DNA of 64,000 bases from Amoebophrya sp. A120. Its lineage: Eukaryota > Protista > Dinoflagellata. The notes below the pieces were generated by a model. That model was not told where the DNA came from, did not search any database, and was given only the letters and a program-made list of their open reading frames with translations. Location of the stretch: contig CAJINV010000010.1 in NCBI GenBank assembly GCA_905178155.1, positions 1,571,182-1,635,181 on the forward strand. The letters run 5' to 3'. A program made the translations under genes and the position numbers. This document shows positions 3,501 to 60,847 of this stretch, one piece after another (position 1 is the first letter of the stretch; every line of letters starts with the position of its first letter).

Positions 3501-6500
3501 CCCCGGGTTCACTATGCAAGAAAAAAATTGTGTAAGTGTAACGTCCCTGTAATGCAGAACATGCAACAGAGTTACATCTGTTATGCCAGAAAGCCACGAG
3601 GCCTCTTTTCATGTGTGTTTTCCCTTGCAAGCAATGCATGACAGGTTTTCTCTGTCACGTAGAGCAAACTTGTGATGCTGTTAGCCAAAGGCAACGAAAG
3701 TTACACTAGCACAATTTGTTTCTTGGATATTCACGCACGGCCCTCTACCCTGCATCGAATACGACTTTGCTGAACTGTTGCGGCGACCTGTGGAGCTCAG
3801 GCAGAGGCGGGGGGGAAGAACTCCGAAGACTTCTGGCGGGAAAGGCAAAGGTGGTAAAAAGAAGGGCAAAGGCAAGAAGCGCGGACGAGGTGGCTCTTCG
3901 CCCCAAACCCGAGGACAACATCTAACCCCAATTATTTCCCGCAACAGCCAAATCTTTTCAAACGTGAAGGACTACATCCACAAGCACAAGTTGAAAATCC
4001 AGGAAATTGCGCAGACAAAGTTCTTACCAAATGCAAAAATGTCTGGGTCTGGAACGAAGGATGCAACTTGTGATGCTGAATTTCGATTCTACAAAAATCT
4101 GTATTGCGTGAACAGCAAAAGAGGTCCAGCTTTTGCCACGGCGAGAGGGCATTTCTCATACGGTATAGGCATCAGGAAGCCCTCACAAAATCTGTGATGC
4201 TAGAGCATGCGTCACAGACTTCAGGAGTCACGCAAAGCGTGCATGACAAACCTTGCATTCTTCCAGACCCAGACACTTTTGCATTTGATAGTTCTACGGG
4301 CTTGAGCAGATTGCACGAAAGCTGGACAAGGAGGAAAACGAATTTTGGCGACAGTTTCTGGTGGAAAAGCGAAAGCAGGCGCAGCAGGAAAACAACAGCT
4401 TGGTTGGGAACTTTGATTCAAAAGTCACGAGAGATCAGCTCCGTCTTTCCTTCCTTTTCCAATACATCCACATGGTGACGAACTTTGACTTCAAAAACAG
4501 CAAATCCGCAAAGAATCCCTACGGCCCGCCGATGCAGCAAAACAGGCCGAAGAAGAGCTATTTCCCGAAAAAATCTTCGAATTTCAAGGAGTTGCAGTTT
4601 TGCTTGGTCAAGAAGTGGGATCAGCTGCGGCACATGTTTATGCTCAAATCCATTTTGCGAATTCGAAAAGCGCTGGCCGTTCCTGGGGATAATGGTATGT
4701 CAGCTGTAGTACCTGGCGAAGATGCGTTACTCCAGCACATCCTCCCGGAGGTTTTACTAGCGGCACTTACGACAACGGCGACTGGTGGATCCAATGCAGC
4801 AACTACCAGCGGCGCTGGCATTCCCGCGAAGGCTGCGACTCTGTCAGAAATTATCGCCCCTGACCAGCAGGCAGAGCTGGTCGAGAAGTTGATTTTCGGG
4901 AAGAACGGCACGACCTCGTTGTTTATCACAGAGCAAGAGAAAGATATTCAGGAGTTGATTTTTGACGCGCGAAGGAAGGCGATCAAAAAAGATTTTCGCA
5001 GTAGCAGCATCTACGCATCGCCAAGCGGAAGTTCCGGCGCCCTTCCCTTCTCCTTCGCGATGTGCTTGGAGTTTTTGAAATTCGATGAGAAAAAAGGAAA
5101 GATGTCGGACAAGATCGTTCTGCCAAGCAACAAATTTGCCGGCATAGCCGATATCCGGAACAAAGTCTACAAAATGCTGGAAAATTACGCAGAGACCGGA
5201 CGGGAAGCGCTGTGTTTGTATCTGGCGAATTTGGTGAAAGCGCAGCTCAAGTGGGAAGTCCTTCACCCGGCGGAAGCGAGGGAACAGCTGGGAGCGATGA
5301 TGATGTTACAGGGAAAAAATATTGAAGATCGCGATACCATTCCGGAATTTTTTCAACCCTTTTTCCAAGACCCGAAACTCCGTCCGATCACCAGGCGAAT
5401 CGCGAAAAACATTTTCCAAACGGGAGGCAACTCGCAGTTTTCGTCCTCTCCCTACGAAGAGCACTTGAACGTGAGGAAACTGGTTTTGGATAGAGAATAC
5501 AGAGACAACAAAGCGAGCAACGCGCTCAGCCTGGACATGTGTTGCAGTCCCCAGAACGACATTTCCTCCGACCACGACACGAATCTCATAGCGTTATTGC
5601 GGGACTTGACGGCGCAAGGGAATCCGAACGATACGTCCTCTGTTTATCGCTTCAAATTCTCCGATATCAAATGTAAAAATGTCTGGGTCTGGAAGAATGC
5701 AACTTGTGATGCTGCATTTGGATTCCAGAAAAATCTGTATTGCATGAGTACCAAAAGGAATGTAATTTTTGCAACGCGGAGAGGGCATTCGTCATGCGGA
5801 ATAGGCATCAAGAAGCTCTCAAAAAATCTGTGATGCTAGGGCATGCATCACAGACGTCAGGGCTCATGCAAAACGTGCATGACAAGTGTCAGAATCTTCC
5901 AGACCCAGACATTTTTACATTTGATATCCGATCCGTCGACCGTCGGGAGCTCTGTCGGTCCCTACAAGACGCCACCCGGGCCGGGTGGGAAGCTGTTGGA
6001 GAGGTTTCTCGACTTTGAGATGGAGATTTTAACAGACCTGGTGGAAATGGCGAAAGCTAGTTTGGAAGTGAGTATGGGAGGCGATATGTTAAAAAAGCCA
6101 CTTAATCCGGTCGAGGAACAAGACGAGACGCGCACTGCCGCTGTGCGACAACGTGCGTGCCTGCCCAGTTCATATTATTTTTGAATCATGGTTGGCGCAG
6201 AGCCCCGCGGGGCTCACGGCCACCGAGACCACCACGCGTTTCTTGTTAGGCAGGAATGAACGCAAGGCCAGCAACCTCGGGCGCGCGGGGACTGCTCGGG
6301 CCAATTTTCATCCTTTTGTTTTTATTTGTTGCTTGGCGTGGGCCTAGCGACTGTGGCCTGACCCAGGCCCTCCTCCCCAAGAATCGACGCGCAGCGTGTG
6401 CTTTGGGCCGGGCCGCCGGAGCTCGGCAGCGGCGCATGGCATGCGCATTGCGCTGCGGAGGGGACCTAGCCCGGTGCAGTGCCGACCGTCTAACCTTGTC

Positions 6501-9500
6501 AGTATAGTCGCATTAGGGAGCCGGGGCCCGACGCGAACCCGGCACCCAGCTGCCCTGTTGTCGCACGCGTTCGGCGAGTCGGTATTGACAAGGCGCCCGG
6601 CCGCGTTACGGAGCGCGGCTGCATGCTCCGTTTGCGTTTGGTATGTGGACATAGATATGTGTGAGCTTGTCTTGCCACCATGTGAATTGCTCTAGTGGCC
6701 GTCGTTTATATGTTCTCTTCCGCCCTCTTTGCCGGGGGCGTAGAGCCTTATTTCCAAATGGGGCGCCACCGTGTATTAAATCCCACCTGGTAACAGCGGT
6801 AGGAAAGTAGTGAGGCCGGGATCGGGCGTGAACCGCGCCTGCGTCTGCACGTGCACAGAGCCCATTTTGCGGCGTTTGAGGTGCCCCGTCGGGCTCTAAG
6901 CGGCACAACCTAAAGCTGCAGCGCACTCGTTTCCGCTGGCTATCGTGAGTATTTCCCGATAGCTATCGTAATGGCGATGGTACCGGAATAAGTGAGTGTG
7001 CGTCCATAGTGAGTATGGGAGCAGGCGATATGTTAAAAAAACCACTTACTCCGGTCGAGGAACAAGACGAGTCTGGTTCTCCTCTAGCGAAACGGATTCG
7101 AATTCGGACCAGCCCGGGGGCAGGGACCACAAATGCTGATGCTGGAACCACTGCGACAATGGAAGACCAGGTGATGGGAGGTGTTGATCCCAGAAGCCCA
7201 GCTTCAGGTGGCTCAGTTCTTGCTTCTTATCCTCTCGACGAAAACACCCCGCTGATCTCAATTTTGCTCGCGTCAGCATCACGATCACCCCCTTCTGGTA
7301 CGAAAACCTCCAACACAGCAGCAGCCTCAACCTCTTCACCAGCATCCTTATTCCAAGTTTCGGAAAGTGCGAAAACCAATTTGAAAGTCGCCGCAAGAAT
7401 GGCGCGCAACGAGAAAAACGCGAAGGAGAATTCGGATGCTGAAGCTGCATCGGGTAACAAAGTAGCGATGTCTGATTTGGAGGAGAAATTGGCAGGTTCA
7501 CTGTTTGTGGAGGTGGACTGCTTTGATGATCTCAGTGGTGGTACAACAGCTGGTGCAGCTGCGGGGGCGGCCACGAGAGTTGTTACATCAAAAAGAAACA
7601 AGAACGTCAAAGCTCCTTCCTCACCAGCTGAGCAGGTGGATGACGAGGACGGGGAATTGCTCTTGCTAAAAGACGCGAAGTGGCGTTTTGCGAAGATCGT
7701 TACGTGCTTGAAACTATCAAATGCAAATATGTCTGGGTCTGGAAGGATGCAACTTGTGATGCTGCATCTGGATTCTACAAAAATCTGTATTGCATAAACA
7801 GCAAAAGAGGTTCAGTTTGTGCCACGGCGAGAGGGCATTTCTCATGCGGTTTAGGTATCAGGAGGCCCTCACAAGAGCTGTGATGCTAGGGCATGCATCA
7901 CAGACGTCAGGAGTCATGCAAAATGTGCATGGCAAACCTTGCATCCTTCCAGACCCAGACATTTTTGCATTTGATAGAAACGGTTAACGGAGGTAGTCGA
8001 CGGACAGAAAAACGGGCTTCTCTTCTTCCATCCGAAGACGACGTGGAAAAGGAGAATCGTTTTCTTGGATGTCGTGAATCCTACAAGTACAACGGCCGAC
8101 GGCACTTCAACATCTAGAAGTACTTCACCCACGAGAACGCCGAACAACCCCATTCAACTCGCGGAATTCCTCACCCAATTGAACGCCTATACCATCGAGA
8201 TGCGGTCTCTTTACACGCAAGCGTTCCCATTTCAACACACGACGAATAAGAAATTCGAGCAGCCGATTCGGCAGCTGGATGAGGTTGAAAACTTGCTGAG
8301 CCAATTACTGACGAAGATGCTGAAGAAGATCCTCGCTATCGCGCCGGGCTTCGGGCAGTTTTGTGCGACTGAGGAGAATTATAACGCGGGCATTTTATTT
8401 CCTGCGACAGAAATGACAGAGCACGAGTATGACGCGCTCAGCTGTTACAATCTCAAACGTTAATACTTTAGAATATGGAAATCTGTGATGCAAGAGTGCA
8501 TGATCTAGCACACTCTCATAGGATTGCGCATGACAAGTTCCGGAGCTCCAAACCCCACTACAATCTGGCGAAATTTGTATTGCAGAAAATGAAACGCTCT
8601 GCGAGTCTGTCATGCTCATCACGCAAGACAAATCTCAGATTCTATTGTAACGCTTGAGATTGTCACGCCTGAGTGGGTTATAACGAGCTGTGTTTGTGGG
8701 AACTATTCATTTTCGTAACGGAGTTGCAGTGGCGGAGATTGGCGGCGTACTGCACGAAAGCTACGTCAGAAGATTTTTCTGCTGCCGGCGCCCGAGGTGG
8801 ACAAGGCTTCGACAGCAGTTATTCACCCGAGCTATTAGAGTTGGTGGCGCAAGCAAGACAAAACAACCAAGAACTTTCAAAAAACGGCTTCCAGCTCAAG
8901 TTCCAGGACGAGTTTCTCTTCGACGATTCTGTGAACAATATTTCCACCAGCAAGACCACGACCCAACTGAAAGCGCTCACCGCCGGAATGGCATCTTGTA
9001 TCCACTTGCTCCACAGCATTGTGGATGGGACTTCCTGTAGAAACGAAACTCTGAAAAGAAAATCGGAGGCGAGCAGAAGCTACAACCCAATTTGGAACGT
9101 TTCTTTAAGCTCAACCACGGAGAGCAAGCAGATCCAGACCAACCTCCAGACCTTCTTCACCCGCATGCTGACAAACCTTGGCACGCAAGAACCGATGCTG
9201 GGACCGCACGCGAGCCACGAAGTGGCAGCTATGGGTAGTAGTAGCACCGACCGAAATTTGAAGCCGTTTCCGATCGCGGGAGCGTTTGTAAATGTGTTGC
9301 TACGCTTCGCGGAGATACTTGCTACAACGCCATCACCAGGCACGAACTCCTCTAGTGTAGTTTCTGCGACACGACCAGCAGCAGGAAAGAAAGAGAAAGT
9401 AGATTCGTCTTCTGCCTCCACCGGAACTGTTCTGATTCAAATCGCGACACAGTTTCTTTTCAAAATGTTCACCCTCACCATCCCCCCCGCCGGGCCGAAT

Positions 9501-12500
9501 ACGGCGACTCTCTGGCCGGATGAAAAAGAGGAGCTGAAGGAAGCGAGCAGCGGAAGCAGGAAGATGAACCTGGGATCAGGTAATTCTCAGCCGGATGAGT
9601 ACGCGAAGAATTATTGGCGGAGCGTCCGAAGCAATTGCTGGGCCTGCAGGATGTCGACGTTTGCGGTTTTGCACGCGAGTTTGCGGGACATGGGGCTTGT
9701 TCTAGGTGGAACTATAGAGGATAACTCGGGTACTACTGGCGGGCGCACGACCACAACGGCTGGAACTGCAAACGACGTCGCACAAGAACTGCCGCTATTT
9801 AACGAGCGGTATTTCCTCGCAATGCTTGAATCCGCGGAAACCGAGCAGATCGAATTAATCCGGCAACTGCAAGATCTCCAGCCTGTGGACGTGAAAGATC
9901 CGGAATCGAGGATCGAACGGGTGGTAAAAACGCTGGAAGACGGCTTCTACAGAATGTTGACATCATATCCTATGTAAAAACGTCCCCACCCCATAGTCAA
10001 GATGGGGGATTGGCTAGACAAATCCACAAGTTTTGGCTGTCTTGCATGACAGATTTGGACTCATAGCGTAGTGCTGTTTGAGCTAGCTCAGCAGCATCAC
10101 AGACCTAGCATATCATGCTGATTGGAGCATGACAAATTGCAAAACACGACTGGAAAATGCTTCTCATGGGGCTCCGCATGAGAAACAATTTCAGCAGGCA
10201 GATTTGCAATACAACTATGGTGTGGGGACGTTTTTACATAGGATACATCAACACCCTTCCTGCTCCAGTATCTCCCGAAGCCACAGTTGCTGCTACCACT
10301 GTGCTACCAAACCTGGTTTGCGCAAGTTGTGAAAGTTTTGAAGATATCAAATGTAAAAATGTCTGGGTCTGGAAGAGTCATGCTGTTTCTGCATAACACA
10401 GAAGGTCTGGCATGGAAGCTCTAGCATGGAAGCTCTAGCATCACAGGTTTCGAGAAGCTTCCGCAATGCCGAACCCGCGTGACAAATCCCCCACTTTGGT
10501 GGCAGAAAGTGAGCAGCTTTTGCTGCCTATGCATCAGAGATTTTTGTGTGCTCTGAAATGCGCATGACAAGTTGCTTTGTTCCATACCCAGACATTTTTG
10601 CATTTGGTAGAAGACCTACGCAGCGCGGAAAATCCAAAATGAGCCCGGCCCGGTATCAAAATGAAAAAAGCTCCCACCCCATATCAATGGGAAATCTGTG
10701 ATGCAGGATTTGTGTACACAAATGCGCGCTGTCTTGCAATACGGCATCGCAGCCAGATCCGCAGCCTACGGAGGGACGTTTGGGTCTAGGTGCTTAGCAT
10801 TACAAACGGCTGTGCTCCAGGCCCAACAGCATGCCAAATCGCTTCCATAATGGCGCGGAAGCCTCTGTGTTTGTCTTCTTGCAAGACACGCGCGATCTGT
10901 GGTCTCAAATCAGCAATACAAATTTCGGAAGCATCCTTTTTGATATGGGGAGCGGGGACTTTTCCTCTCAATACCCGGACAGAATTCGCTTCTACGATTG
11001 GCTTTGGAACGAAACAGAGAAACTGCTGAAGATTGGGTTTCAGGCCCATTTGATGAGCTTTAGCGGGTATTGCAGGAGTAGAAACGTTCTGGTGCTGCAG
11101 GATGAACATCAAAGTCAGAGCCAGCAAGGACAACGAACAACTACCGAAAAAGGACAAAACGCGCAGTACTTTTCCCTGACGGAGGTAGAGGCATATGCAA
11201 AACAGCTAGCCGAACCGCTGACGGAGTTACTCCAGCTGCATTTGAAACTTTTCCGAGAAGATATCGCGAAACGGGATTCCGTTGCGAAGCACCATTTCAT
11301 GGAAATTGCAAAGAAATGGCTGCGGCTCGCGAGCGACTGGGAAGAGGGAATTCTGCTGTCCTCCGAAGGGACTGCGCGGAGTTGCCTGCATGCGCTTGCG
11401 GTTTTGAACTCTACTACTTGCAGGGGAAATACTGCGCAGGAGGACCAGCACCAGCAAGCTTCGCCGCTGAAACAGTTCTACGATAAGGAGCTTTACAACC
11501 TGCGCAGACTCGTGATCAAAACTGCGATGGAAATCCAGCTCCCCGTGATACAGCACCAGGACGGTCTTGCGGCGACGAAGAAGTACGTTTGGCTGGTTGA
11601 CTCCACTTTGTACAAGCCCGCGGGCAATCTTATCGTCGATGTGGACTCCTTCGAAAAGCCAAGGGGGATTGAGTCGTTAAACCTGTTGCCCGGGGATGAA
11701 AAAGAGTTCGAAAGACTGCGGAAGCTGTACGTGGAGAGACTTATGGAGTGTATAGAAGAGGACGAGAAGATAATGAAAACGGGACAGCCTACTTCCAACG
11801 GCGGAGGCTTTGTCGGTCGTTCTGACGATGAAAGCGGAAAAATGCACCTCTCCGAGGACTCCAATGGACCTGCATCCTTATCCCCGATCGACGACAACAT
11901 GGGTGTGATTGGTACAACTTCTGCCAACGATAAAGCTGCTGGAGAAAAACCTTCTTCCTTCCTGCGAGATCTCCTGTCCGCGGCCCACCGGAAGAGATTC
12001 GCGGACCGGAGCGAGTATTTGAAAAACTTTTTAGACAAGTTAACGCGGCAACTGCAGGTGTTCCAAAAACCGGACAAGACAACCCCGCTTCTCCCTCTCG
12101 CCGAACAGGCGCGGCTATCTGCGAAACAGCGGACCGAACTGTTTTTGCAGGTTTTCATGGAGCGGAGCGGGTCCCAAGACTCGGAGGAGTTTAAGAAGCA
12201 GGTCTTTGACGCAGGAATTGCGCGGGACAATTCTTCCTCGTTCAGCACCACTACCGGCGGGGCGGCTGGAGTGAAGATGAAACTGCTGCCACTGCCTGAA
12301 GACACAACGATGAAGACTTGGAAAATACATGCCTCCATGTTTTTCAAACGATTCATGTTTTTGATCCGCAGCTCCGTAGGCGAAGGAAGACTGCAGCTGT
12401 TCCATGTATATTTAGACCACTTACTTATTTTCTTCAGGTGCTGGAGTTTCACTTTCAAATACATTTTTGTGGTGAAGATGCTCTCGCTCCAATTTATTTT

Positions 12501-15500
12501 CTATCTTGTTTTAGTGACAGGCATTTTATTTGCAGCTCCTAGAAGCAACAAGAGTGAAATATTCATGAGTAGCTCGTCCTCCTGAACGCGGGAACGAATG
12601 ATATAAAAAATCAAACACCGACCAGTCTCCTCCCCTCCTTCGCTTTATCGCCTTCGTTTTCAACGGCCTCGACTTCGTTTTTCCGGACCATGACCTGCCG
12701 AAACCCGATAGCGATGCGGAACTGCAACAGGAGTGGCACCTTAGACAAGCGTGGGAGCTGTTTCATTTGCTCAAATTGGAAATGGAGGCTGATGACGTGC
12801 CCTCTGGTTACCACGACCGATCTCTTCCTGCTTTCTTCGGTCCCTGGACCTTCAAACGGCTTTTCGAAGACAAATTGCAGCTGCCCAACCCCGCGGAGAA
12901 GCTGTTCTATGCCAGCATCCGGATCGCGAGAAGGAAGAAGCAAACCTTTCTGGAGAGGTCACTCCCTTTATGCAAGAAAAGAACTGTGTAGGTGTAACTC
13001 TGTGATGCGGAAAGTGCAAAACTGTTTTACAGTTGTCATGCTGGATGTGCGTCATGGGCTACTTTTATACGTGTTTCCACGTACTAGCTGCGCATGACAG
13101 GTTTTCCCTGTAATGCAAAACGAATTTGTGATGCTGCTCTTGTTCCTACGAAGTTACACTTCCATACACAGTTTTTTTCCTGGATACCCTTGGGACAGAG
13201 TGCACAACCAGAAGCAAGTAAAAACGCTGCGGGCGAAATTCCAGCTGCAGTCTGATTGGCTCAGACTCATTGCGAGTGACTACTTACCGGATTACGTTCT
13301 GGAGATGGAGGAGCGGAAGCGGTTCAATGGTATCGAAAGGAAGAATCCCCCCTCCCTATATCAAAACGGAATTTCTGATGCTGGATTTGTGTACACAAAT
13401 CAGCTTTGTATTGCAGAGAGGCATTGCCATTGCGGCCAGATCTCCAGGCTTAGTAGGGGCGTACGGGTCTAGTAGTAGTTCAACATGGCAAACGGCTCCC
13501 CTTTCGGCCCAACAGCATGACAAATCGCTTCCACAATACATAGGGCGGAAGCTTCTGCCCTTGTCTTCTTGCATAGACAAAAGTGATTTGTGGCCTCAAA
13601 TCAGCAACGCAAAAAATTTTCGGAGACATACCGTTTCAATATGGGGAGGGGGGATTTTTCCTTACGATAAATAGCGGAGCGAAATTTCGAAGTTTGCTGG
13701 TGAATTCTTCTTCTCCCACCGCGGCTCCTCAGCAGGGTAGCGTCGTTGCGGCAGACCAAATCATGGACCTGCAGATGATTGAGGATGAATTTATGCTACA
13801 GAACTACGCCCAGCTGACGCAGTTTGCCCTGGAAAGGGACGAGACGAAGTTCCGGGTTTATTTGCGCAGAGCAACATACACACACAGGGCCACAAATCTT
13901 CTGAGCAAGGTCTTCCCGGTGGACATTTTCCGGTACGGAAGGCGCGAAACGTCTGGGCATGGGCTGCTTCCTCGCACGGAAGTAAGAACTCCGGCGGACA
14001 AAGTATGGCTTACTCAGATGTTACAATCTCAAATCGGTTACCATAGAATTTGAAACTTGTGTTGCATGATGAGCATGACAGACTCGCAGAGTGATGCTCC
14101 ACTTTCTGCAATACAAATTTCGCCAGATTGTAGCGGGGTTTGGGACTCCGGAACTTGTCATGCGCAATCCTATGAGAGTGGGCTAGAACATGCACTCTTG
14201 CATCACAGATTTCCGTATTCTATTGTAACGTTTGAGATTGTAACAGCTGAGCAGGTTATACAAAGAAACCACTTGCTGCGATGAGGTTTTCGAAAAGCTG
14301 CTGAAACTGGATCCAAGTCTGATCGCGCTGGCAGAAAACATTTTCGACCACAACACCTTTAGGACGCACATCACGGCACTGTGTACCGGACCAGCCGCGA
14401 GTGGTAATCCAGAGGACGAGTTGTCGCAAATGGGTATCAGTGCTGGCGTGATACAAAGAACTCAAAAAATGTCGAAGAGAGTCAAGCAGTTCCGTTTTGG
14501 CACATTGGATGAAATATCCAAGAAAAAACAACCATATTACCCATCCAATTTGTCATGCAAAACCTACATCATTTTCAGGATTTGTCATGCAAAAAATGGA
14601 TGGGGATGGTTGGTTTATTTTTTGTCCAGGATAAGACATAACCCTTCTCGATTTCGCCCGGGTGAGGCGAGAGGACCTGTTTTCAAAGTGGCTAGATCTC
14701 GCTCAGGACCGGAAAAAGGTGAATTGGGATACTGTGCTGTTCCCCGAAGATTTGGACCACGCGCTGGGCAAGTTTGGCTTTCGCTCCATTTTCCTGGACG
14801 AATTCGATAGTAAGAATGCCGCATCATCTATTACTGGTGCGCTAGGGGGCAACACAACGACAACGACCTCCGCCCCAGCAGGAACATCTTCAAGTCTACC
14901 AGCAGCAGAGACCCCGGAAGCCCCTACCAACGCGATCGCCCTGCCGCTGAGACAGCTGCTTCGGCTGTCGGGGCCGGCGGCCCGGATCTTTGCGAAAGAA
15001 GCGAAGTTTTGGGTCTTATCCGATGCGGCGGACTTGCAGTTTCGGAGTGCAAAGATGCAGCAATTCGTGCAGAATCCAAGCACGAGCTTTGTCCAGGTTT
15101 TGGAATTGTTACAGGAATTAGCTGTGGTTCCGGATAAAAAGGAAGAGATGTTGAGCAGCAGCTACACAGGTGGAACGAGCAAGGGTAAGGGGAAGAATGG
15201 TGACCAAGGCAATGCAGCTTTCCAAGTAGCCCCAATGCAAAACATCCCTGGTGCCGCGACCGCAGCGAACAGCATGATCACGCCGAACAGCGGCTCTGAC
15301 CCAGAGAGCTCCGACAAGGATAAAAACGACGAAGCGAAGCAGGCCGCGAACGCGACGCTACTCGAATCGCTCGTCATATGGAAGCGTCAGGATTGAAATC
15401 GTCAAAGTTGAAATGATTCCTCATGCAGGAATTGCAAGGCATGAAGTGCCTCTCTTGCAGGGATGGGAAGTGAGGCCGACTGTCAGCCTGTTTGGGGTCT

Positions 15501-18500
15501 GCGAGAGAGCTGCTAAAGTAGCATGACAAAAGACGCCGTCTTCTATCCCTAAACAGCATGACAGACTGGATTTAGACGGTGCCGAAATTTGTCATGCACC
15601 GCTTAGAAATTGGGCTTTTAACTGGTATCGATTTTATGCATTACAAATCATTTCAACTTTGTCGATTTCAATCCTGACACTCCCATACGTCATCGCGAGC
15701 TTGCAAACCGACTCGGCCGCCCACGTGGTTTCCTTTCTCCTCTCCCCACGCATGCTGCGAAACCCGCAGACGCAGCGGATCGCCGCGACGGTGCTACGGG
15801 CTTTGGGCACGAGGCTGACGAAGCAGCAAATGCTAATGCTTTGTGAGCACTTACTGCAGAAACCCCGGAAGCCGTGCTTGAAAATGCTGCTGCACAAGCA
15901 GTATGGATTGCAAAAATGTCTGGGTCTGGAAGAATGCAGGAGTTTGTGATGCAGATTTTGCATGACCCATGAGGTCTGTGATGCATGCCCTAGCATCAGA
16001 GACTCTGCGAGGGCTTTCTGATGCTCATACCGCATGAAAAATGCCCTCTCCGCGTAGCACAAATTACACCTCTTTTGCTGTTCATGCAATACAGATTTTA
16101 TGTAGAGTCCAAAGGTAGCATCATAAGTTGCATCCTTCCAGACCCAGACATGTTTGCATTTGATAAGCAGATCCTGCGAATCGTCATGGACCAAGTGGAA
16201 AATCCGGTGAATTTTGCAGAGGGGAAAAAAGTATGAAATGCAAATATGTCTGGGTCTGGAAGAGTGTAACTTGTCATGCTAAATCTGAATCGTGGAAAAA
16301 TTTGTATTGCATCATTACCAAAAGAGGTCCACTCTTTAACAAGTTCAGAGGCAGTTTCTCATGCAGGAAAGGCATGATAGAGATCTTACAGAACCTGTCT
16401 TCATGCTAGACCGTGCATGCCAAACCGTGCGGGTCATGGAAAACCTGCATGACAAACCTAGCACTCTTCCAGACCCAGACACTTTTGCACAGGATAAAAA
16501 GCAGCGGACATTTTGTTGAAAGAGTTCAAGGAAATCTCCGAGAAGCCGTGGAAAACGCAGAATTTCAAGACGAAACAGGAGTTCTGGTCGTTTAATTATC
16601 GAAAGTTGGTGGAGTTGAACGAGCAGTTATTTGCTCTTGGAAACATAAACACCACTTCTTCGAGGACTGCTGCAGCTTTTGGATTTTTCGCAAAGCAGGA
16701 GGCGAAGGTGATTCAGAAGAACATACAGACGTATGGAGTTTTGGATGTGAAAAAGTTGCAATTTCAGCAAGTCCAGGACAAATCTGTAGTCAAAGAAATG
16801 AAAGACAAGGTGAAGGAAAGAAACGATTTACTGTCGAAATTTGCGGGAATTCTGGATCGCACGAAGGACATGCAGAACTTGATTTTGGAAAGAGTCACAG
16901 CATCTGTAATGCTGGTGAACGTAAGGAATCTCGATGAGGAGACACGGGAAGATCAACTGCAAAGTACAAATCGAGGGAATAGTAAAACAAACACAACACC
17001 GCCTCCAACCACATCTGGATCTTCGGCCGACGCATCTATCGCGGACATGCAGCAAGCCTGCTACTGGAAAATTCTCGATTACACGGCCGAAAACTCGTGT
17101 TTCTTCGACTGCGATGTTCTCGCCTCGATTTTCCTCGCCCCTCTTGCCTTTGAAACGGATTTGATCGGAAAAGTGACCAGAATGAAGATGAAAAAAGTCT
17201 TTCAGTCCCACCGACAGCAAAGCCATCCGCTGCACAAAAACAGTACTTCCGCTGCAGACGAAGCAAACGCGTTTGCCTACGGAACGAAGTATAAAGTCGG
17301 GAGGAGCAAAATTTTCCAGTCCTTTTTCACGACAACAGGCCTCACTCTCGCCGCAGCCGATTTTTCCCTCGAGGGGGCCCCGAGTCCCAGCTACACTAGC
17401 CACAACAACTCGCTGACCCACTATTCCCGGGGAAGTTCGGTGTCGAAAGCGTTGGTTTGTTACGGGAGGTGTAAAATCCCAACGGAGTTGTTGGAGTTGA
17501 TTGTTGATTACACAGAAGACGCATTTGAACTAGATGTGGAGAAAGAGCAACAGGCGTTGTCTCTCGTGAGCAAAGACGTGTTGACAACGACGACGGTACC
17601 AGGTCGTGCTGCCACAGCAGCGGAGCAAGAGCAACAATTATTCGCGTTTCACGAAGATGAATTTAAACAGCGGCAAGCGGTGAAAGAGATGCAGGTTTTG
17701 AGAGGTCTCGCTAAGCAGGTGAAGAAGGAGAACAACCGCGGCGGGAGCTGCAACAGTAACTCAGCGGTGGAACAACTCCAAGAAGACAACTACTTGCAGA
17801 AAGACTGGCCGAATCTGGAGAAAGGGGTAGCGATGCTGGAAAGGTTGAAAGCATCGCTGTTGAAATCTTCCTGTGCAAGCACCACTGGAGCTTCTTCCAC
17901 TTCACCCACTACTTCTACTACGCATTCACCCTCCACTCCTATCCGCAGCTTACTCCGCCAGTCCATTGACTCTGTGAGGAAAGACGCCGACAAGGTTCTA
18001 GTCACTGACGGAAACGACGCGTTGCTGAAGCTGGTGGAGATGCGGCTGGATGCGCTCAAGTGTCAAAAGGTGTTTTTGGACGACAAAGATGCGGTGGATG
18101 AAGAACTCCTTCAAGAAGGCATTGGCATTACTTCCTCTTCCAAACAAGCGAACACTGTCCAGCAAAGAGCGGAATTGGAGATGGGTGGTTCTATGGAGTT
18201 GAGCGAGTTACCATACTTGAAAAACGTCATGAACCTCATCCGCGAGTTTTCAACTAAGGCAGAGACTGCGTACAGATCGACTACCGGGACTCCTGTATCA
18301 ATGCAAGCCGCAGCTTCAGCCTCAACAGGCTCAGTGGGGGTACTAGCACCCTCTTCAGATCAAGAACAAGCACCTTCCTACAGCTACGTCGAGAAACAGC
18401 ATCTCTTCCACCGGACGATTCACTACGCTTACTACCTGCAATTAGCCGAAATCCTCAAGTGTATCCTCCTAGGCCGGATGCTATTGGAAGGGGTTCTCCG

Positions 18501-19281
18501 GATGAAACAACTTGCTTCCACTTGGGAATTGAACTTCGCGAAGACCAAAAACAACAGCTCCGGAGACCGTGGTGGGAAGAAGCAAATCGGGACTGTGATC
18601 CACGCGAAAAACAACGCGTTTGTAGATTCTGTTGCGCATTCTGTGGTTAGTAGCAGTCTCGGGATCTGGGAGTCGACCATGCGTGGGTTTCTGGAAAAAA
18701 ACAGGAGTGGTGGTGTAGTTGCAATGGAAGTGGATGAAAGTAGCGCGGGCGTCGGACTGCTCGGAGGAAATACGAGTGCAGCCACGACAGCTCACCTTGA
18801 TGTCCTCGACTCCTTGAGAAACCAGCTCGGATCCTCGCTGCACACCCTGCTCCACACCCCCTTCCTCGAAGCGGTCCAGATCGAGCACGTAGTTACGCAG
18901 ACGCAAAACAGTACCACTGCGACGCCCTCCACAATTCATCCGCAAATCCGGCTCACGAAAAAGGATTTCTCCACCCTGCACCTTTCCCTGCTTTCTGGCT
19001 GTCTTTACGAATTCAGCCCGCAGCATCTGTTCGGTTTCTCCTACATGCACGAGCAGACGATCGCTGGGCTACTGTTGAACTCTCTCAAACAGTCGAAGGA
19101 GTTGCGACTCTTCGCACATCATGCGAACACCGACACGACGACAACTGGCGGGGGCAACAGAGACCCCCTGGGACTTTTCGCAATGGTGGCGGGAATGATA
19201 GTGGACGAGGCAAAGGAAGAAGGAAGGACTAAAGGTGACACGAAACACAAGGTCCCGTGGAAACAGGTGCTCAAGCCGTGA
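521..19281 (+). CDS. Giant multi-exon protein of unknown function (~4,270 aa after removing interruptions)
   Basis: Exons 521-2299, 2519-2571, 2877-3222, 3466-3512, 3735-4024, 4296-5664, 5932-6072, 7014-7714, 7982-8427, 8688-9965, 10251-10344, 10615-10653, 10979-12373, 12645-12968, 13192-13330, 13675-14003, 14266-14514, 14639-15376, 15693-15901, 16171-16231, 16502-19281 join in frame (total 12,807 nt) and link the listed ORFs 521, 2779, 3778, 4361, 5843, 7009, 8065, 8673, 10831, 12767, 13113, 13583, 14421, 14662, 15659, 16513. No domain recognised. Confidence 0.75.
2300..2518 (+). other. Canonical GT-AG intron
   Basis: ATG|gtattt...catacag|GTC; removal gives QTM-VAHWIGTLPV in frame with the next exon. 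Confidence 0.75.
2572..2871. mobile_element. TIR introner, family C
   Basis: tatggaagcgtcaggtttgaaatcgacaaagttgaaa...tttcaactttgtcgatttcaatcctgacactcccata; 5-bp DR ccgtt. Confidence 0.92.
3223..3460. mobile_element. TIR introner, family D
   Basis: tatggccgcgttctcaaatgttacattctcaac...gttgagaatgtaacagttgggaactccata; DR agcag. Confidence 0.9.
3513..3729. mobile_element. TIR introner, family I
   Basis: tatgcaagaaaaaaattgtg...cacaatttgtttcttggata; DR ttcac. Confidence 0.9.
4025..4290. mobile_element. TIR introner, family A
   Basis: taccaaatgcaaaaatgtctgggtctggaa...ttccagacccagacacttttgcatttgata; DR gttct. Confidence 0.93.
5665..5926. mobile_element. TIR introner, family A
   Basis: tatcaaatgtaaaaatgtctgggtctggaaga...tcttccagacccagacatttttacatttgata (perfect TIR); DR tccga. 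Confidence 0.95.
6073..7008. mobile_element. Atypical 936-bp GC-rich insertion obeying the TAT...ATA / 5-bp DR rule
   Basis: gtgag|tatgg...gcgtccata|gtgag; removal restores frame. Its left ~55 bp duplicate the downstream exon (6068-6127 resembles 7009-7071). Confidence 0.55.
7715..7976. mobile_element. TIR introner, family A
   Basis: tatcaaatgcaaatatgtctgggtctggaagg...ccttccagacccagacatttttgcatttgata; DR gaaac. Confidence 0.95.
8428..8682. mobile_element. TIR introner, family E
   Basis: tatgacgcgctcagctgttacaatctcaa...ttgagattgtcacgcctgagtgggttata; DR acgag. Confidence 0.9.
9966..10245. mobile_element. TIR introner, family G
   Basis: tatcctatgtaaaaacgtccccac...gtggggacgtttttacataggata (24-bp perfect TIR); DR catca. 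Confidence 0.93.
10345..10609. mobile_element. TIR introner, family A (reverse orientation, diverged)
   Basis: tatcaaatgtaaaaatgtctgggt...acccagacatttttgcatttggta; DR gaaga. Confidence 0.92.
10654..10973. mobile_element. TIR introner, family H
   Basis: tatcaaaatgaaaaaagctcccaccccatatcaa...ttgatatggggagcggggacttttcctctcaata; DR cccgg; homologous to 13331-13669. Confidence 0.88.
12374..12644 (+). other. Probable degenerate non-canonical intron (ends approximate)
   Basis: AT-rich interruption with weak IR gcgaaggaagactg / cagtctcc...ccttcgc and gct repeat; removal joins LIRS-FIAFVFNG in frame; no GT-AG at the in-frame junction. Confidence 0.55.
12969..13186. mobile_element. TIR introner, family I
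   Basis: tatgcaagaaaagaactgtgta...tacacagtttttttcctggata; DR ccctt. Confidence 0.9.
13331..13669. mobile_element. TIR introner, family H
   Basis: tatcgaaaggaagaatcccccctccc...gggaggggggatttttccttacgata; DR aatgg/aatag. Confidence 0.9.
14004..14260. mobile_element. TIR introner, family E (inverted relative to 8428)
   Basis: tatggcttactcagatgttacaatctcaaa...tttgagattgtaacagctgagcaggttata; DR caaag; interior is the reverse complement of 8428-8682. Confidence 0.92.
14515..14633. mobile_element. Short TIR introner (119 bp)
   Basis: tatccaagaaaaaacaaccat...atggttggtttattttttgtccaggata; degenerate DR tgaaa/agaca; frame restored. Confidence 0.78.
15377..15687. mobile_element. TIR introner, family C (inverted relative to 2572)
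   Basis: tatggaagcgtcaggattgaaatcg...cgatttcaatcctgacactcccata; DR cgtca. Confidence 0.93.
15902..16165. mobile_element. TIR introner, family A (reverse orientation)
   Basis: tatggattgcaaaaatgtctgggtctggaag...cttccagacccagacatgtttgcatttgata; DR agcag. Confidence 0.93.
16232..16496. mobile_element. TIR introner, family A
   Basis: tatgaaatgcaaatatgtctgggtctggaagagtg...cactcttccagacccagacacttttgcacaggata; DR aaaag. Confidence 0.93.
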
Positions 19282-20183
19282 AAGTAATTTTGGAATACAA
19301 ATTTTGAAGTCCTTTGCAGATATGTCGATGGCGTAGGCGTTCGCAATCGTATTACGAAGCTGTTTTTGTATACGACGTAGTGTTATATTTTCAGACCTGT
19401 GATAAATGACCTCCAACAGTACTCAAAACTAAGTTTTGCTATTGCTGGTATACCACCGTATCAACAAAGATAAAGAGATGATGAATCTGACACCTTGGTG
19501 ACAAGCTTTCAAATGTCTACGTGGATAATTTCAAATGAATCCTCGATGGGAAGGGTATCGAAAAAGAAACACTACACTCCTCGAGAAAATTGGTGATTGA
19601 AAGTATTTTTGAAGCGACGGATTGATACATAGATCACGCACTGGCAGCTACTTACTCGTGTTGCGCTTAGTACCTGACCTATTGAAGACTTTTTTTCTAC
19701 TCTCTCGAGCCTAACTCAGCTTGAGCCTGTGGCTTGCAGAACCACGGCAGAACGAGTAAGTCTGAATTTTCGCAAGAAGGTCATTGATGCATGATCAGTC
19801 TTTTGTGTTTCTTTCTTCCCGGAGCGATTCGCTGAGCCGTTTTGCTTTTTTTTCTGGTTGCGCAGCGAGGGCAAGAAGGCTTCCGCTTTTACGAGCCATA
19901 GAAGTATTTTCGCCCGCTTTTTCGTTCGAAATAAATCGGATCTTTTTTTTTTTTTGCTTGTTTGATGTTTTCTTATGGCCAAAGTCTCGTTGCTCCTGCT
20001 AGTCTGATCTGAAAAGCCTCGCACTGACCTGAAAAGTCCGGAGTCCACTTATCTTCAACATCTGTCGTGATGATCGAGGTAGTTGTTTTTTCTTCGGCTT
20101 TTAGTTCGTTGCTGCGTTCGTCAGCTTGAGCGGCCCTGCAGTGACAAGGAGCAGTTGTATTTGTAAGGTCAAGTAGCATCTAG

Positions 20184-21112
20184 TCAATAATACATGTCAT
20201 AAATGGCCTCCTTAGCATCCTTGCGAGGCGTAGACCCGGCCATAGACGGAGCAAGCTGCACCGTGATCCCGCCCATATTGGCAACCGCCAGCCAAAGCAG
20301 TCCCAGTCTCCCGAGTACAAGTGAGCCCAGCGTCCTGTTTCTATCAAATGTAAAAATGTCTAGGTCTGGAAGCTTGCCAGGTTTGTCTTGCATATTTTGG
20401 AAGACTCATGATGTCTGATGTCTGTGATGCATGCTCTAGCATGACAGATGTTTAGAGGCCTTTGTGATGCCTCTACCGCATGAGAACTGCCCTCTCCGGG
20501 TAGCACAAACTGGAGTTCCTTCGCCGGTCATGCAATGCAAATTTTTTTAGAATCCAGAGACAGCATCACAAGTTCAGAATCTTCCAGACCCATCCACTTT
20601 TGCACTTGATAGCTTCGCCTCCCGCCCGAAATGGTGGACGGCGAACCAGAGGAACTCTTGGTGAATTCCCGCATGACGGCACCGGTAGCGCTTTGTGGGC
20701 CGGCGCCCGGTAGCAACGAAGAACGCGAATCTGCAGCCAGGATCATTGATTTCCATAGAGGGCGGCTGTCTGCTGGAGTAGAAGCTGTAGCCGGAGTTGT
20801 GCAGCCCGTTCCTGATGTTGACCGACCTAGTGAATTTTCCACGGGATTTGATGCGGAGCATGGGGCAGCTGGGGAAGATGATTTTCCTGCGCAAGTTGGC
20901 GTGAAGGGGCAGCTGCCAATATCTTCTCTTTTTGTCAAGAACACAAAATTTTTGACGGGTGAATCTTCTAGCGGTAGTACTAGAAGATCATCAATGTGGT
21001 GCTGTATCCGGTAAAGCTGCACTGTCATCGATTTGATATCTTTAAAACCACGCGGGCAAAGAGGAACGTCCTCTAGGTTTTTGTCCACCATCAAGATCGT
21101 ACCATATTCCAT
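20184..21112 (-). CDS. Hypothetical protein (~217 aa, one introner); strand uncertain
   Basis: ORFs 20528-21112 and 20184-20393 join in frame after removing 20342-20611 plus DR. The + strand ORFs 20203 and 20631 also join, so strand rests on amino-acid composition only. Confidence 0.4.
20342..20611. mobile_element. TIR introner, family A
   Basis: tatcaaatgtaaaaatgtctaggtctggaag...cttccagacccatccacttttgcacttgata; DR gtttc/gcttc. Confidence 0.9.
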
Positions 21113-21527
21113 CAGTGAGCCCTGTTTTAGTTCGAGCTTTATGTGACGAAAATGCTACCTTCCTGTTCCTGCCTCTGCCTCTGGCTCGTCTCGATGTTCA
21201 TCACGTCATGCCTCTGGCCGCGTATTGGTTTCCGTTTCGATAGTGTCCTCTATAACCAGTTTTTTTTTTACTGTATCATACTAGACAGATGAGAGAGTGT
21301 GTGTTTGTCGCTTTTTTTTTTGAAGCTCCACCATGACCTGAGCGATTTTTTTCCATAAGGAACATGGGATACAGTGGAACCACTAGTAGATAGGCTCACG
21401 ACCACTACACAGTACAAATATTCAATCTCGCTTAGTAGCAGAGGGAGAGGTTGGTAGCTATTGGTATTAGTTGCAGTCTTACCTCCTTGATCTGCAGCGG
21501 CAGCTAAAAGACGAATTAGAGAAATAA

Positions 21528-35776: not shown

Positions 35777-36266
35777 CAGCGGGCGTAACGGTACAACAGC
35801 AAGAGATCTACGACTGGAAATCGCGGAACTGATTCGGGAGGAGCAGGAGGACCGAGGAAATTTGCGGTACTTGCACGAATTGAAAGCACAAAAACAGCGC
35901 GGGAGCGGTGGAGGAACCGCTTCAGCTTCTTCCTCTTCAGGGGACTTCCATAGTCGACCAATGATCAATACCATGGGCGCTAATTTGGGCATCATAGGTC
36001 GTGGAGCTGGAGCTACAACCTCTTCGTCATCTGCCTCGAGCAGTAGCGCCGCTGGTGGCCCCGCTAGTGCCGCAACAAGCACCGGACCAGTAGTTGCAAC
36101 CACTACAGCGTCCTCCACGCAGACCAGCTCTACTCCCGCTCATCATGCGGAGCAAAAGCAAGATTCCCGACCCTACCCGGTTTTCCTCTGTGGGATTTCG
36201 CAGGGCGGGGTGATGGCCCTGCACATTGGGGTTGCAGCGGCGCTGTTGCACGAGAATCCAGTCATA

Positions 36267-37003: not shown

Positions 37004-37157
37004 TATCCACAGTAAATTTCCCGTACACGTACAAATGCAGTCTCTGCATGACAAAACTTGCCTTCAGTCCTAGTCTAGCATGACAAGTTGGACACTGCAA
37101 GTTGGCGAAATTTGTCATGCATTTTGTACATCATTTACGGAAAATTTACATTGCATA
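37004..37157. mobile_element. TIR introner, family F (duplicate of 27889)
   Basis: Same sequence and DR ggaac as 27889-28042. Confidence 0.9.
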
Positions 37158-60530: not shown

Positions 60531-60847
60531 GACTATTTCTCCGTATATTGTTCACCCCCTGGTCGTGCGGGGTTGTTCGCCATTTCGGTGCTGTTAATTC
60601 TTTAGCACGCGCTGTGGCTACATGTTATTTTCCACACCCTGACCCGCGCACGCAGCCAGTGCATGCAGAGAAGATCGCCAGCGATGGCACTGTCGCTCGC
60701 TGGCTTCGCAAATACGACCACGAATTGCCCACATAAGCTAAGCCCTCTACGTCTCAGCCCAATGTTGCATATGTGCTTCATATTCGAGTACGCCAAAAAG
60801 GAAAAGTAGATGCAGAATAGTTGATCCATACCAAATTCTCATAAAAC

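What the first reader, a model, noticed from the sequence alone, without database searches (positions are those of the whole stretch)
8428..16496. The same element works as an intron in both orientations inside one gene
Seen: within the giant + strand gene, family E occurs at 8428 and reverse-complemented at 14004, family C at 2572 and reversed at 15377, family A forward (4025, 5665, 7715, 16232) and reversed (10345, 15902). Family F (27889 vs 61451) and family D (3223/54799 vs 30808) are also flipped between + strand genes. Known: spliceosomal introns are polar (5' site, branch point, 3' site). Inference: removal depends on a symmetric feature, either an RNA hairpin formed by the TIRs or DNA-level synapsis of the two ends.
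Basis: partly seen in the sequence, partly recalled or inferred. Interest (0 to 1): 0.85.

Follow-up and report, generated by a model that had tools for sequence, protein, structure and literature searches.

The report
Known two-way transposon introns of Amoebophrya

Summary
Families A, C, D, E and F each occur in both orientations inside + strand reading frames.

All are miniature inverted-repeat elements of 119-339 nt. They have TAT...ATA termini, inverted ends of about 30 nt and a 5-bp target duplication of no fixed sequence.

Transcript contigs of run X3 lack exactly "element + 5 nt" at 10 sites, and none has a register with GT/GC/GA..AG. The 10 include family A forward (16232) and reversed (10345, 15902), E reversed and C reversed. 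Removing 13 introns gives one open frame of 2965 aa. A public protein named Amoebophrya sp. A120 is an exact substring of it.

So these are the "introner elements / non-canonical introns" of Farhat et al. 2021, whose A120 motif (TAT, about 7 nt, AAA) matches.

Among 105 family-A copies, orientation relative to the coding strand is about even (30 vs 33).

Inverted ends make both orientations look alike to any machinery, so orientation independence does not prove that the hairpin is needed. A wobble-pair test found no RNA-level selection.

The class is already known. The even orientation and the cut register are small additions.

The parts
6949..19278 (+). Host gene: one open frame of 2965 aa once 13 introns are removed. 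The last 1984 aa equal a public protein named Amoebophrya sp. A120.
   Evidence: P0003 (197 aa) is an exact substring spanning 9822-11292
7715..7981 (+). Family A, reference orientation: element 7715-7976 plus duplication copy GAAAC
   Evidence: Inverted ends 15/16, duplication 5/5. Frame stays open 255 aa upstream and 149 aa downstream after removal. No transcript contig covers it.
8428..8687 (+). Family E, forward: element 8428-8682 plus ACGAG
   Evidence: Duplication 5/5. Frame open 148 aa upstream and 426 aa downstream after removal. Predicted terminal stem of 42 pairs. No transcript contig covers it.
9966..10250 (.). Single-copy element H plus CATCA
   Evidence: Inverted ends 16/16, duplication 5/5. 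The junction is present in protein P0003.
10345..10614 (-). Family A, reversed: element 10345-10609 plus GAAGA
   Evidence: X3 joint 10339>10610 skips 270 nt. Junction present in P0003. Orientation.
10654..10978 (.). Family I element plus CCCGG
   Evidence: X3 joint 10648>10974 skips 325 nt. Junction present in P0003.
12406..12625 (+). Ordinary GT..AG intron of 220 nt, used as an internal control
   Evidence: X3 joint 12405>12626. No terminal stem: z -1.5, 9 end-to-end pairs. Junction present in P0001.
12969..13191 (.). Family G element plus CCCTT
   Evidence: X3 joint skips 223 nt. Junction present in P0001.
13331..13674 (.). Family I element plus an imperfect duplication (AATGG upstream, AATAG downstream). 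It fixes the cut register.
   Evidence: X3 joint 13329>13674 skips 344 nt with only 1 nt of ambiguity. Junction present in P0001.
14004..14265 (-). Family E, reversed: element 14004-14260 plus CAAAG
   Evidence: X3 joint 13997>14260 skips 262 nt. Junction present in P0001. Orientation 66% same / 86% reversed against 8428.
14515..14638 (.). Short element K (119 nt) with a degenerate duplication (TGAAA / AGACA). It constrains the cut register.
   Evidence: X3 joint 14513>14638 skips 124 nt with 3 nt of ambiguity. Junction present in P0001.
15377..15692 (-). Family C, reversed: element 15377-15687 plus CGTCA
   Evidence: X3 joint skips 316 nt. Junction present in P0001. 62% same / 77% reversed against 2572.
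15902..16170 (-). Family A, reversed: element 15902-16165 plus AGCAG
   Evidence: X3 joint skips 269 nt. Junction present in P0001. 64% same / 86% reversed against 7715.
16232..16501 (+). Family A, reference orientation: element 16232-16496 plus AAAAG
   Evidence: X3 joint 16225>16496 skips 270 nt. Junction present in P0001.
2572..2876 (+). Family C, forward: element 2572-2871 plus CCGTT, in the upstream 805-aa frame
   Evidence: no transcript contig covers it
3223..3465 (+). Family D, forward, plus AGCAG
4025..4295 (+). Family A, reference orientation, plus GTTCT
5665..5931 (+). Family A, reference orientation, plus TCCGA. Length 267 nt = 3 x 89; the frame continues across it.
20342..20616 (-). 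Family A, reversed on the + strand. It lies beyond the stop codon of the big gene, and the strand of its host transcript is unclear.
   Evidence: X3 joint 20338>20614 skips 275 nt. Strand ambiguity.
27889..28047 (+). Family F copy plus GGAAC, with an identical copy at 37004 inside a 9.1-kb duplicated segment
61451..61610 (-). Family F, reversed, plus TGGCA, inside a + strand frame (60845-62432 after removal)
30808..31048 (-). Family D, reversed. The duplication is degenerate (GTTCC / AATCC).
54799..55038 (+). Family D, forward, plus ACGCC, inside the + strand frame 53443-58504

Best explanation
These are the already described introner elements of Amoebophrya sp. A120: miniature inverted-repeat transposons with a 5-bp target duplication that are absent from transcript contigs in both orientations as exactly 'element plus one duplication copy'. 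Their removal is likely positioned by the terminal inverted repeats, which are predicted to pair into the same stem whichever way the element lies.

Shown:
- The anatomy: TAT...ATA termini, inverted ends of about 30 nt, and a 5-bp duplication without consensus.
- Both orientations of one family occur inside one reading frame.
- The removed stretch has the exact length in 10 of 10 non-GT-AG junctions.
- No register has GT/GC/GA..AG.
- Orientation across 105 copies is about even.

Inferred:
- Removal happens on the RNA.
- The stem brings the two cut sites together.
- The conserved UAU / AUA ends mark the bonds.
- From two informative imperfect duplications, the 5' cut lies at the first element nucleotide (or 1 nt before it), and the 3' cut lies 5 nt (or 4 nt) past the last.

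The enzyme is unknown. It could be a U1-less spliceosome helped by the stem, or a separate cut-and-ligate system.
For: Transcript evidence. Run X3 contigs skip 270, 325, 223, 344, 262, 124, 316, 269, 270 and 275 nt at elements in the region. Each length equals element + 5 nt, and 0 of 10 has any register with GT/GC/GA..AG. Another contig of the same run skips a 220-nt GT..AG intron of this gene, so the run holds spliced RNA. One 2477-nt contig lacks three consecutive elements (C reversed, A reversed, A forward).

Reading frame and public proteins. Removing the 13 introns gives one 2965-aa frame. Public protein P0001, named Amoebophrya sp. A120, is an exact substring covering 8 junctions. P0003 covers 3 more.

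Predicted structure. All 18 elements between 2572 and 20611 fold with 20-44 end-to-end pairs, z -3.5 to -13.6. The GT-AG intron gives 9 pairs, z -1.5.

No signal outside the element. The 78 perfect family-A target sites carry 0.14 bit or less per position. The 5-nt duplication positions of the 36 window elements carry 0.07 bit or less.

Match to the published motif. Termini and motif fit the A120 description 'TAT, seven less-conserved nt, at least three A' (against PMC7789003 section 11).

Orientation. Relative to the coding strand the count is 30 vs 33 at LLR 10 or more, 41 vs 36 at 5 or more, and 24 vs 20 at 15 or more. The strand classifier was validated at 123/138, 79/91 and 40/40.

Cut register. 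At 13331 the transcript keeps the upstream duplication copy. At 14515 only 'element + about 5 nt downstream' reproduces the junction.
Against: Pairing of the ends is also what transposition requires, so it is not specific evidence for an RNA role.

The wobble test was negative. In 62 strand-assigned family-A copies, mismatches in the terminal stem are G.U 69 vs A.C 71 on the sense strand (p 0.93). Watson-Crick pairing is 86% in both orientations.

Two precisely removed elements have poorly paired tips in the minimum-energy fold: 16232 pairs only from position 8, and K (14515) only from 15/22. This favours recognition of the terminal sequence over stem geometry.

X3 is labelled only 'RNA? (a guess)'.

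Forward E (8428), forward C (2572) and forward A at 4025, 5665 and 7715 are supported by frame continuity alone.

The register rests on two introns. A third, 20342, agrees only if its transcript is on the + strand, which is uncertain.

Contigs cannot give splicing efficiency, so equal efficiency of the two orientations is not shown.
Confidence: 0.55

Rival explanations
1. Linear signals only. A divergent spliceosome (no U1 snRNA was found by Farhat et al.) reads sequence motifs inside the inverted ends: UAUS plus an A-run in the 5' arm, and a U-run plus SAUA in the 3' arm. Pairing between the arms is irrelevant to splicing and exists only because the transposase needs two alike ends.
For: Inverted ends give the same 5' arm and the same 3' arm in both orientations, so polar signals work both ways. 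The only positions conserved across families are the terminal TAT[C/G] and [C/G]ATA and the A-run / T-run at positions 11-13 from each end. The 3' arm therefore carries a U-rich tract about 11-14 nt before the element end. Elements 16232 and 14515 are removed precisely despite weak tip pairing. There is no G.U over A.C excess on the sense strand. Either-orientation introners that use spliceosomal sites exist in Polarella and Aureococcus.
Against: No register gives GT/GC/GA..AG in 0 of 10 junctions, and the terminal dinucleotides differ between introns. The 3' bond lies in unconserved duplicated exon sequence 5 nt past the element. A sequence-reading spliceosome would have to measure to that bond, not read it.
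Confidence: 0.3
2. DNA-level precise excision. The elements are cut out of the DNA in some or all expressing nuclei, as with ciliate internal eliminated sequences. Repair on the 5-bp duplication restores the gene, and the transcripts are colinear with that DNA.
For: 'Element plus one duplication copy' is exactly the product of a precise transposon excision. The elements are TA-bounded. No DNA-read control could be run.
Against: The assembly carries every element at every site in the window. The run whose contigs lack the elements also has a contig lacking a GT..AG intron of this gene. Farhat et al. defined these introns by mapping RNA-seq onto the genome (PMC7789003 sections 10 and 32, passages read). 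No nuclear dimorphism is known to me for this group (recalled).
Confidence: 0.04
3. Artefact. The joined forms come from paralogous element-free gene copies or from assembly errors, not from this locus.
For: Contigs, not reads, were laid. X3 depth is low over the exons (1-28).
Against: The contig pieces listed in table 8 match the flanking exons with 0 other letters and 0 gaps. 11 junctions are also present in two public proteins. The frame stays open across 13 introns.
Confidence: 0.02

Closest known systems
Introner elements / non-canonical introns of Amoebophrya sp. A25 and A120 (Farhat et al. 2021, BMC Biol 19:1, PMC7789003; sections 11, 12 and 16 read in full, other passages and the held supplement searched)
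   Same: Same organism. Borders are not GT-AG. The intron ends carry inverted repeats predicted to form a hairpin. Direct repeats of 3-5 nt lie at the boundaries. The A120 motif TAT + about 7 nt + AAA matches. The copies form repeated families. There is no transposase inside. Many occur per gene.
   Different: Nothing essential: this is that system. The texts I could search do not mention element orientation relative to the gene ('orientation' is used only for genes). They call the border position relative to the hairpin unknown or variable. Here orientation is about even, and two imperfect duplications place the 5' cut at the element start. The inverted ends here (about 30 nt) are longer than the 8-20 nt motif they scored.
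Either-orientation introners of Polarella glacialis and Aureococcus anophagefferens (Roy et al., bioRxiv 10.1101/2020.10.14.339549, passages read; the Aureococcus work is known to me only through that text)
   Same: DNA transposons with target duplications that create an intron in either orientation. The removed stretch restores the original message.
   Different: Those use G[T/C/A]...AG sites recruited from the duplication or the element end, and show a bias to one orientation. Here there is no such dinucleotide pair in 0 of 10 junctions, no target consensus and no bias.
Nonconventional introns of euglenids (Milanowski et al.; review PMC11282704; PNAS 2025 PMC12501133; passages read)
   Same: Variable non-canonical borders, terminal inverted repeats that bring the ends together, duplication-like repeats at the junctions, a suspected miniature-transposon origin, and unknown machinery.
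   Different: A different lineage. The euglenid motif CAG/CTG at +4-6 / -8 to -6 is absent (G at position 6 in 0 of 36). The stems here are far longer. Circular excision products are known there and untested here.
Non-canonical introns of the tunicate Fritillaria borealis (Henriet et al. 2019, seen only as cited in PMC11282704 and PMC7789003)
   Same: Introns derived from miniature transposons and lacking GT-AG.
   Different: Those have a preferred AG-AC / AG-AT pattern and are attributed to a modified major spliceosome. Here 0 of 10 junctions have an AG..AC or AG..AT register.
TA-bounded internal eliminated sequences of ciliates (recalled, not read here)
   Same: Short TA-bounded insertions of transposon origin inside genes, removed precisely.
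   Different: Those are removed from DNA during macronuclear development. Here the assembled DNA keeps them and spliced transcripts lack them.

Membership tests
Amoebophrya A120 introner elements / non-canonical introns (Farhat 2021) | Intron borders other than GT-AG, supported by transcripts | tested here: met
   10 X3 joints with no GT/GC/GA..AG register
Amoebophrya A120 introner elements / non-canonical introns (Farhat 2021) | Inverted repeats at the two intron ends able to form a hairpin | tested here: met
   18 of 18 elements have 20-44 end-to-end pairs, z -3.5 to -13.6. This is a prediction, not probing.
Amoebophrya A120 introner elements / non-canonical introns (Farhat 2021) | Direct repeats of 3-5 nt overlapping the exon/intron boundaries | tested here: met
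   5-nt repeats. They are perfect in 81 of 105 family-A copies and match at 4 of 5 in 13 more. Window list.
Amoebophrya A120 introner elements / non-canonical introns (Farhat 2021) | A120-type end motif: TAT, about seven variable nt, then at least three A | tested here: met
   In 36 window elements: position 1-3 is TAT in 35 of 36; positions 11-13 are A in 28, 28 and 33 of 36. The TA ends were partly imposed by my scan.
Amoebophrya A120 introner elements / non-canonical introns (Farhat 2021) | Source organism and repeated families | tested here: met
   Protein name. Families.
Either-orientation canonical introners (Polarella, Aureococcus) | Inverted ends, target duplication, and intron creation in either orientation | tested here: met
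Either-orientation canonical introners (Polarella, Aureococcus) | G[T/C/A]..AG splice sites recruited from the duplication or the element end | tested here: not met
   0 of 10 junctions. No target-site consensus.
Euglenid nonconventional introns | Non-canonical borders with terminal pairing that brings the ends together | tested here: met
Euglenid nonconventional introns | CAG / CTG at +4-6 and -8 to -6 (as stated in PMC11282704) | tested here: not met
   G at position 6 in 0 of 36 elements
Euglenid nonconventional introns | Excised as full-length circular RNA, after the conventional introns | not testable with these tools
   Only contigs were available. The raw-read runs gave almost nothing.
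Fritillaria non-canonical introns | Predominant AG-AC / AG-AT ends | tested here: not met
   0 of 10 junctions have such a register
Ciliate-type DNA elimination | Removal at the DNA level | not testable with these tools
The assembly itself retains all elements.

The most novel reading that the evidence does not exclude
Amoebophrya erases these transposons from its messages with a non-spliceosomal machine that measures structure, cuts and ligates. It makes one cut at the 5' foot of the inverted-repeat stem and the other five nucleotides past its 3' foot. This mirrors on RNA the transposase's 5-bp staggered target cut. Any insertion, in either orientation and in any sequence context, is therefore removed precisely.
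Probability: 0.15. Interest if true: 0.85.

Novelty: already known. Interest (0 to 1): 0.33.

Why it matters
How Amoebophrya removes tens of thousands of introns that lack any splice-site consensus is still open. Farhat et al. 2021 call the mechanism unknown. I found no later paper resolving it in searches.

This window supplies three constraints that any mechanism must meet:
- It must work equally for both insertion orientations (about 1:1 among 63 strand-assigned copies).
- It must take nothing from the flanking exon sequence (target sites carry 0.14 bit or less).
- It must place the two bonds asymmetrically: at the element's first nucleotide, and about 5 nt past its last.

This also matters for gene prediction. 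Standard gene finders break such genes into pieces: the public model for this gene starts 981 aa inside the open frame.

Tried and rejected
- No RNA holder was listed on record for the stretch.
- The three raw-read RNA runs of the same species label gave only 3, 2 and 396 partly fitting reads, none on the exons. They say nothing about expression or splicing efficiency.
There is therefore no DNA control and no transcript check of the forward E, forward C or the three upstream forward A copies.
- No whole genome is held for the window.
- Pfam: 0 of 20 long frames reach a curated cut-off.
- Rfam: 0 matches.
- Earlier findings of the scan: nothing for this genome or this sequence. One unrelated note on another genome.
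- Protein searches with exon 16498-19278 at 'near' lengths and exon 8673-9977 at 'longer' lengths found nothing.
- Strand calling by frames that span the junction was too noisy: 73 of 105 were unclear and it mis-called window copy 15902. I replaced it with a codon-usage classifier.
- The 'introns bridged' control was a flawed measure and is not used.
- The per-junction frame test only fixes the extra removed length modulo 3: 25 of 39 are best at 2 mod 3.
- Copy 20342 was dropped from the register argument because the strand of its transcript is ambiguous.
- The excess of G.T over A.C in the element's own reference orientation, 83 vs 57 as derived, follows the element and not the transcript. 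I read it as inherited subfamily variation, not selection.

Full report
**What is there.**
The window is eukaryotic, about 50% G+C, with nearly all long frames on the + strand.
- Family A is about 262 nt. It lies forward at 4025, 5665, 7715, 16232, 35425 and 63431, and reversed at 10345, 15902, 20342 and 45844.
- Family E lies at 8428 and reversed at 14004.
- Family C lies at 2572 and reversed at 15377.
- Family D lies at 3223 and 54799 and reversed at 30808.
- Family F lies at 27889 (and a duplicate at 37004) and reversed at 61451.

The inverted ends could mimic a reversed match, so I checked orientation in two ways.
- Whole-element identity is 14-27 points higher in the stated orientation than in the other. 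An element against its own reverse complement scores only 55-68%.
- Clustering on internal sequence alone, with 35 nt trimmed from each end, gives the same assignment with no conflict.

**Anatomy.**
Every element begins TAT[C/G] and ends [C/G]ATA. Each has inverted ends of about 30 nt and is flanked by a 5-bp direct repeat that differs from copy to copy.
- A strict scan finds 18 such elements in the window, against 0 in five shuffles and 0 in the reversed sequence.
- A curated list has 38, which is 13.8% of the window.
- They are 119-339 nt long, too short to encode a transposase.
- Across 36 non-duplicated elements only two features are conserved: the terminal three or four nucleotides, and an A-run at positions 11-13 (mirrored as a T-run at the 3' end). 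The five duplicated positions carry 0.07 bit or less.

**Are they removed, and where?**
No whole genome is held. Coded sequencing runs of the same organism were found. Contigs of run X3 laid on 1500-21000 show eleven clean joints.
- One joint is a 220-nt GT..AG intron (12405>12626). This shows the run holds spliced RNA.
- The other ten skip 270, 325, 223, 344, 262, 124, 316, 269, 270 and 275 nt. Each equals one element plus 5 nt.
- The ten include family A reversed (10345, 15902, 20342), family A forward (16232), E reversed (14004) and C reversed (15377).
- One 2477-nt contig lacks three consecutive elements.
- I listed every register allowed by the duplicated bases. None of the ten has GT, GC or GA paired with AG.

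Removing 'element + 5 nt' at 12 sites plus the GT-AG intron turns 6949-19278 into a single open frame of 2965 aa. An upstream frame of 805 aa (2459-6181) spans five more elements. Three public proteins bear on this.
- P0001 is 1984 aa and is named 'unnamed protein product [Amoebophrya sp. A120]'. It is an exact substring of that frame and covers eight junctions.
- P0003 (197 aa) covers three more junctions.
- P0002 lies within one exon.

The level of support therefore differs between copies.
- Transcript contigs show removal for both orientations of family A.
- For E and C only the reversed copy has transcript support. The forward copies at 8428 and 2572 rest on frame continuity: 148 and 426 aa open around 8428.

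**What it is.**
The organism name and the features match the 'non-canonical introns / introner elements' that Farhat et al. 2021 described for Amoebophrya A25 and A120 (PMC7789003; sections 11, 12 and 16 read). They report the following.
- More than 60% of introns are not GT-AG.
- The intron ends carry inverted repeats of 8-20 nt that can form a hairpin.
- Direct repeats of 3-5 nt lie at the boundaries.
- In A120 the repeat motif is 'TAT, seven less-conserved nucleotides, at least three A'. This is the motif seen here.
- There are 29,850 repeated introns in A120, making up 17% of the assembly.
- No U1 snRNA was found, and the splicing mechanism is unknown.

This is a known system, and these copies belong to it.

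**Orientation beyond the window.**
- Together with the window they give 105 distinct family-A copies. The 5-bp duplication is perfect in 81 and matches at 4 of 5 in 13.
- I trained a codon-usage strand classifier on window exons. Leave-one-exon-out accuracy is 123/138 for 180-nt pieces, 79/91 for 270 nt and 40/40 for 540 nt.
- Of the 105 copies, 15 with poor ends were set aside.
- At LLR 10 or more, 30 copies lie like copy 7715 relative to the coding strand, 33 lie the other way and 27 are unclear. The counts are 41 vs 36 at LLR 5 or more and 24 vs 20 at LLR 15 or more.

Classifier errors pull the counts towards 1:1, but at these accuracies a strong bias would still show. The 78 perfect target sites show no sequence preference, at 0.14 bit or less per position. 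The exon therefore supplies no splice signal.

**Mechanism: what orientation independence does and does not show.**
Inverted ends mean the transcript always starts the element with the same arm and ends it with that arm's complement, whichever way the element lies. Both a structural signal (the stem) and polar linear signals inside the arms survive inversion. Orientation independence therefore rules out signals in the asymmetric interior. It does not by itself prove a hairpin.

Points for the stem:
- All 18 elements between 2572 and 20611 fold with 20-44 end-to-end pairs, z -3.5 to -13.6. The GT-AG intron gives 9 pairs, z -1.5.
- Families with unrelated arm sequences are all removed at the same place relative to the stem foot.
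- The 3' bond lies in unconserved sequence.

Points against, or neutral:
- Arm complementarity is needed for transposition anyway.
- Elements 16232 and 14515 have poorly paired tips in the minimum-energy fold yet are removed precisely.
- A direct test for RNA-level selection was negative. A mismatch that is G.U on the sense RNA is A.C on the antisense, so selection for pairing in the transcript should enrich G.U. In 62 strand-assigned copies the terminal stem has G.U 69 vs A.C 71 (p 0.93). Loop positions show no matching mutational skew (233 vs 272). Watson-Crick pairing is 86% in both orientations. A 32-bp stem may tolerate single mismatches, so this result is inconclusive, not contrary.

**Cut register.**
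With a perfect duplication the position of the bonds is undetermined within 5-6 nt. Two introns inside the 2965-aa frame have imperfect duplications.
- At 13331 (AATGG / AATAG) the message keeps the upstream copy.
- At 14515 (TGAAA / AGACA) only removal of the element plus about the next 5 nt reproduces the junction.

Together they place the 5' cut at the element's first nucleotide or 1 nt before it, and the 3' cut 5 or 4 nt past its last. All ten junctions are compatible with this. A third case (20342) agrees only if its transcript is on the + strand, which I could not settle. With n = 2 this is a lead, not a rule. Farhat et al. describe the border position relative to the hairpin as variable or unknown (figure 3 legend).

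**Rivals.**
- Purely linear recognition by a U1-less spliceosome: about 0.3.
- DNA-level precise excision: about 0.04. It would give the same product, but the assembly keeps every element and the run whose contigs lack them also holds a contig lacking a GT-AG intron of this gene.
- Artefact: about 0.02.

**Comparison and novelty.**
- Introners that create introns in either orientation are reported for Polarella and, through that text, Aureococcus. Those have G[T/C/A]-AG sites and an orientation bias.
- Euglenid nonconventional introns share the logic but not the CAG/CTG motif.
- Fritillaria introns have AG-AC/AT ends.

The main text and held supplement of Farhat et al. use 'orientation' only for genes. 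My searches found no statement on element orientation in Amoebophrya. The 2025 introner survey required same-orientation alignment of ends.

The class is therefore already known. The roughly 1:1 orientation, the absence of any target signal and the tentative register are modest additions. They constrain a mechanism that is still open.

Noticed in passing
26700-26999 and 35815-36114 (spacing 9115): A segmental duplication of about 9.1 kb, with a 300-nt stretch 100% identical. It carries two elements with the same duplications in both copies (27152/36267 TCATA; 27889/37004 GGAAC). The gene segment was therefore duplicated after the insertions.
   Followed up: partly
6181-6949: Unresolved stretch between the 805-aa and 2965-aa frames. 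X3 mean depth is 0 for bin 6057-6707 and 1.41 for bin 6708-7358. A 61-64-nt repeat (6067-6127 vs 7008-7071, 92%) encodes the same peptide motif on both sides. It may be an intron of another kind or a local duplication.
   Followed up: no
19860-21480: The codon-usage signal favours the - strand here (windowed LLR -6 to -15), inside an otherwise + strand block. Yet a 178-aa + frame starting with ATG at 20203 scores better in frame than the 231-aa - frame. The host strand of the family-A copy at 20342 is therefore unclear.
   Followed up: partly
3518-3542 and 13070-13119 (family G elements): Raw RNA run X11 has 396 partly fitting reads, 95-99% alike, only on the arms of the two family-G elements. 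They are joined 'on opposite strands' (3542 to 13119), with unrelated or adaptor-like sequence beyond. They probably come from a related foldback copy elsewhere or from a short hairpin RNA.
   Followed up: no
5406-6056, 7359-8009, 15822-16472: X3 contig depth over bins that contain family-A elements (372, 110, 97) is far above that over exons (1-28). This could be collapse of many copies, or abundant excised element RNA.
   Followed up: no
L001-L146 and window, family A: Intron length (element + 5) modulo 3 is 38 / 23 / 17 among 78 perfect copies, an excess of multiples of three. This is possibly just inheritance of a 262-nt master length.
   Followed up: no
family A terminal stem (alignment of 90 copies): In the element's own reference orientation, G.T mismatches outnumber A.C (83 vs 57, derived), whichever strand is transcribed. 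This points to inherited subfamily variants.
   Followed up: partly
6949-10978: The public protein model for this gene starts at an internal methionine, 981 aa inside the open frame that the introns' removal reveals. The upstream part is represented only by fragments (P0002, P0003). This suggests the annotation splits the gene.
   Followed up: partly
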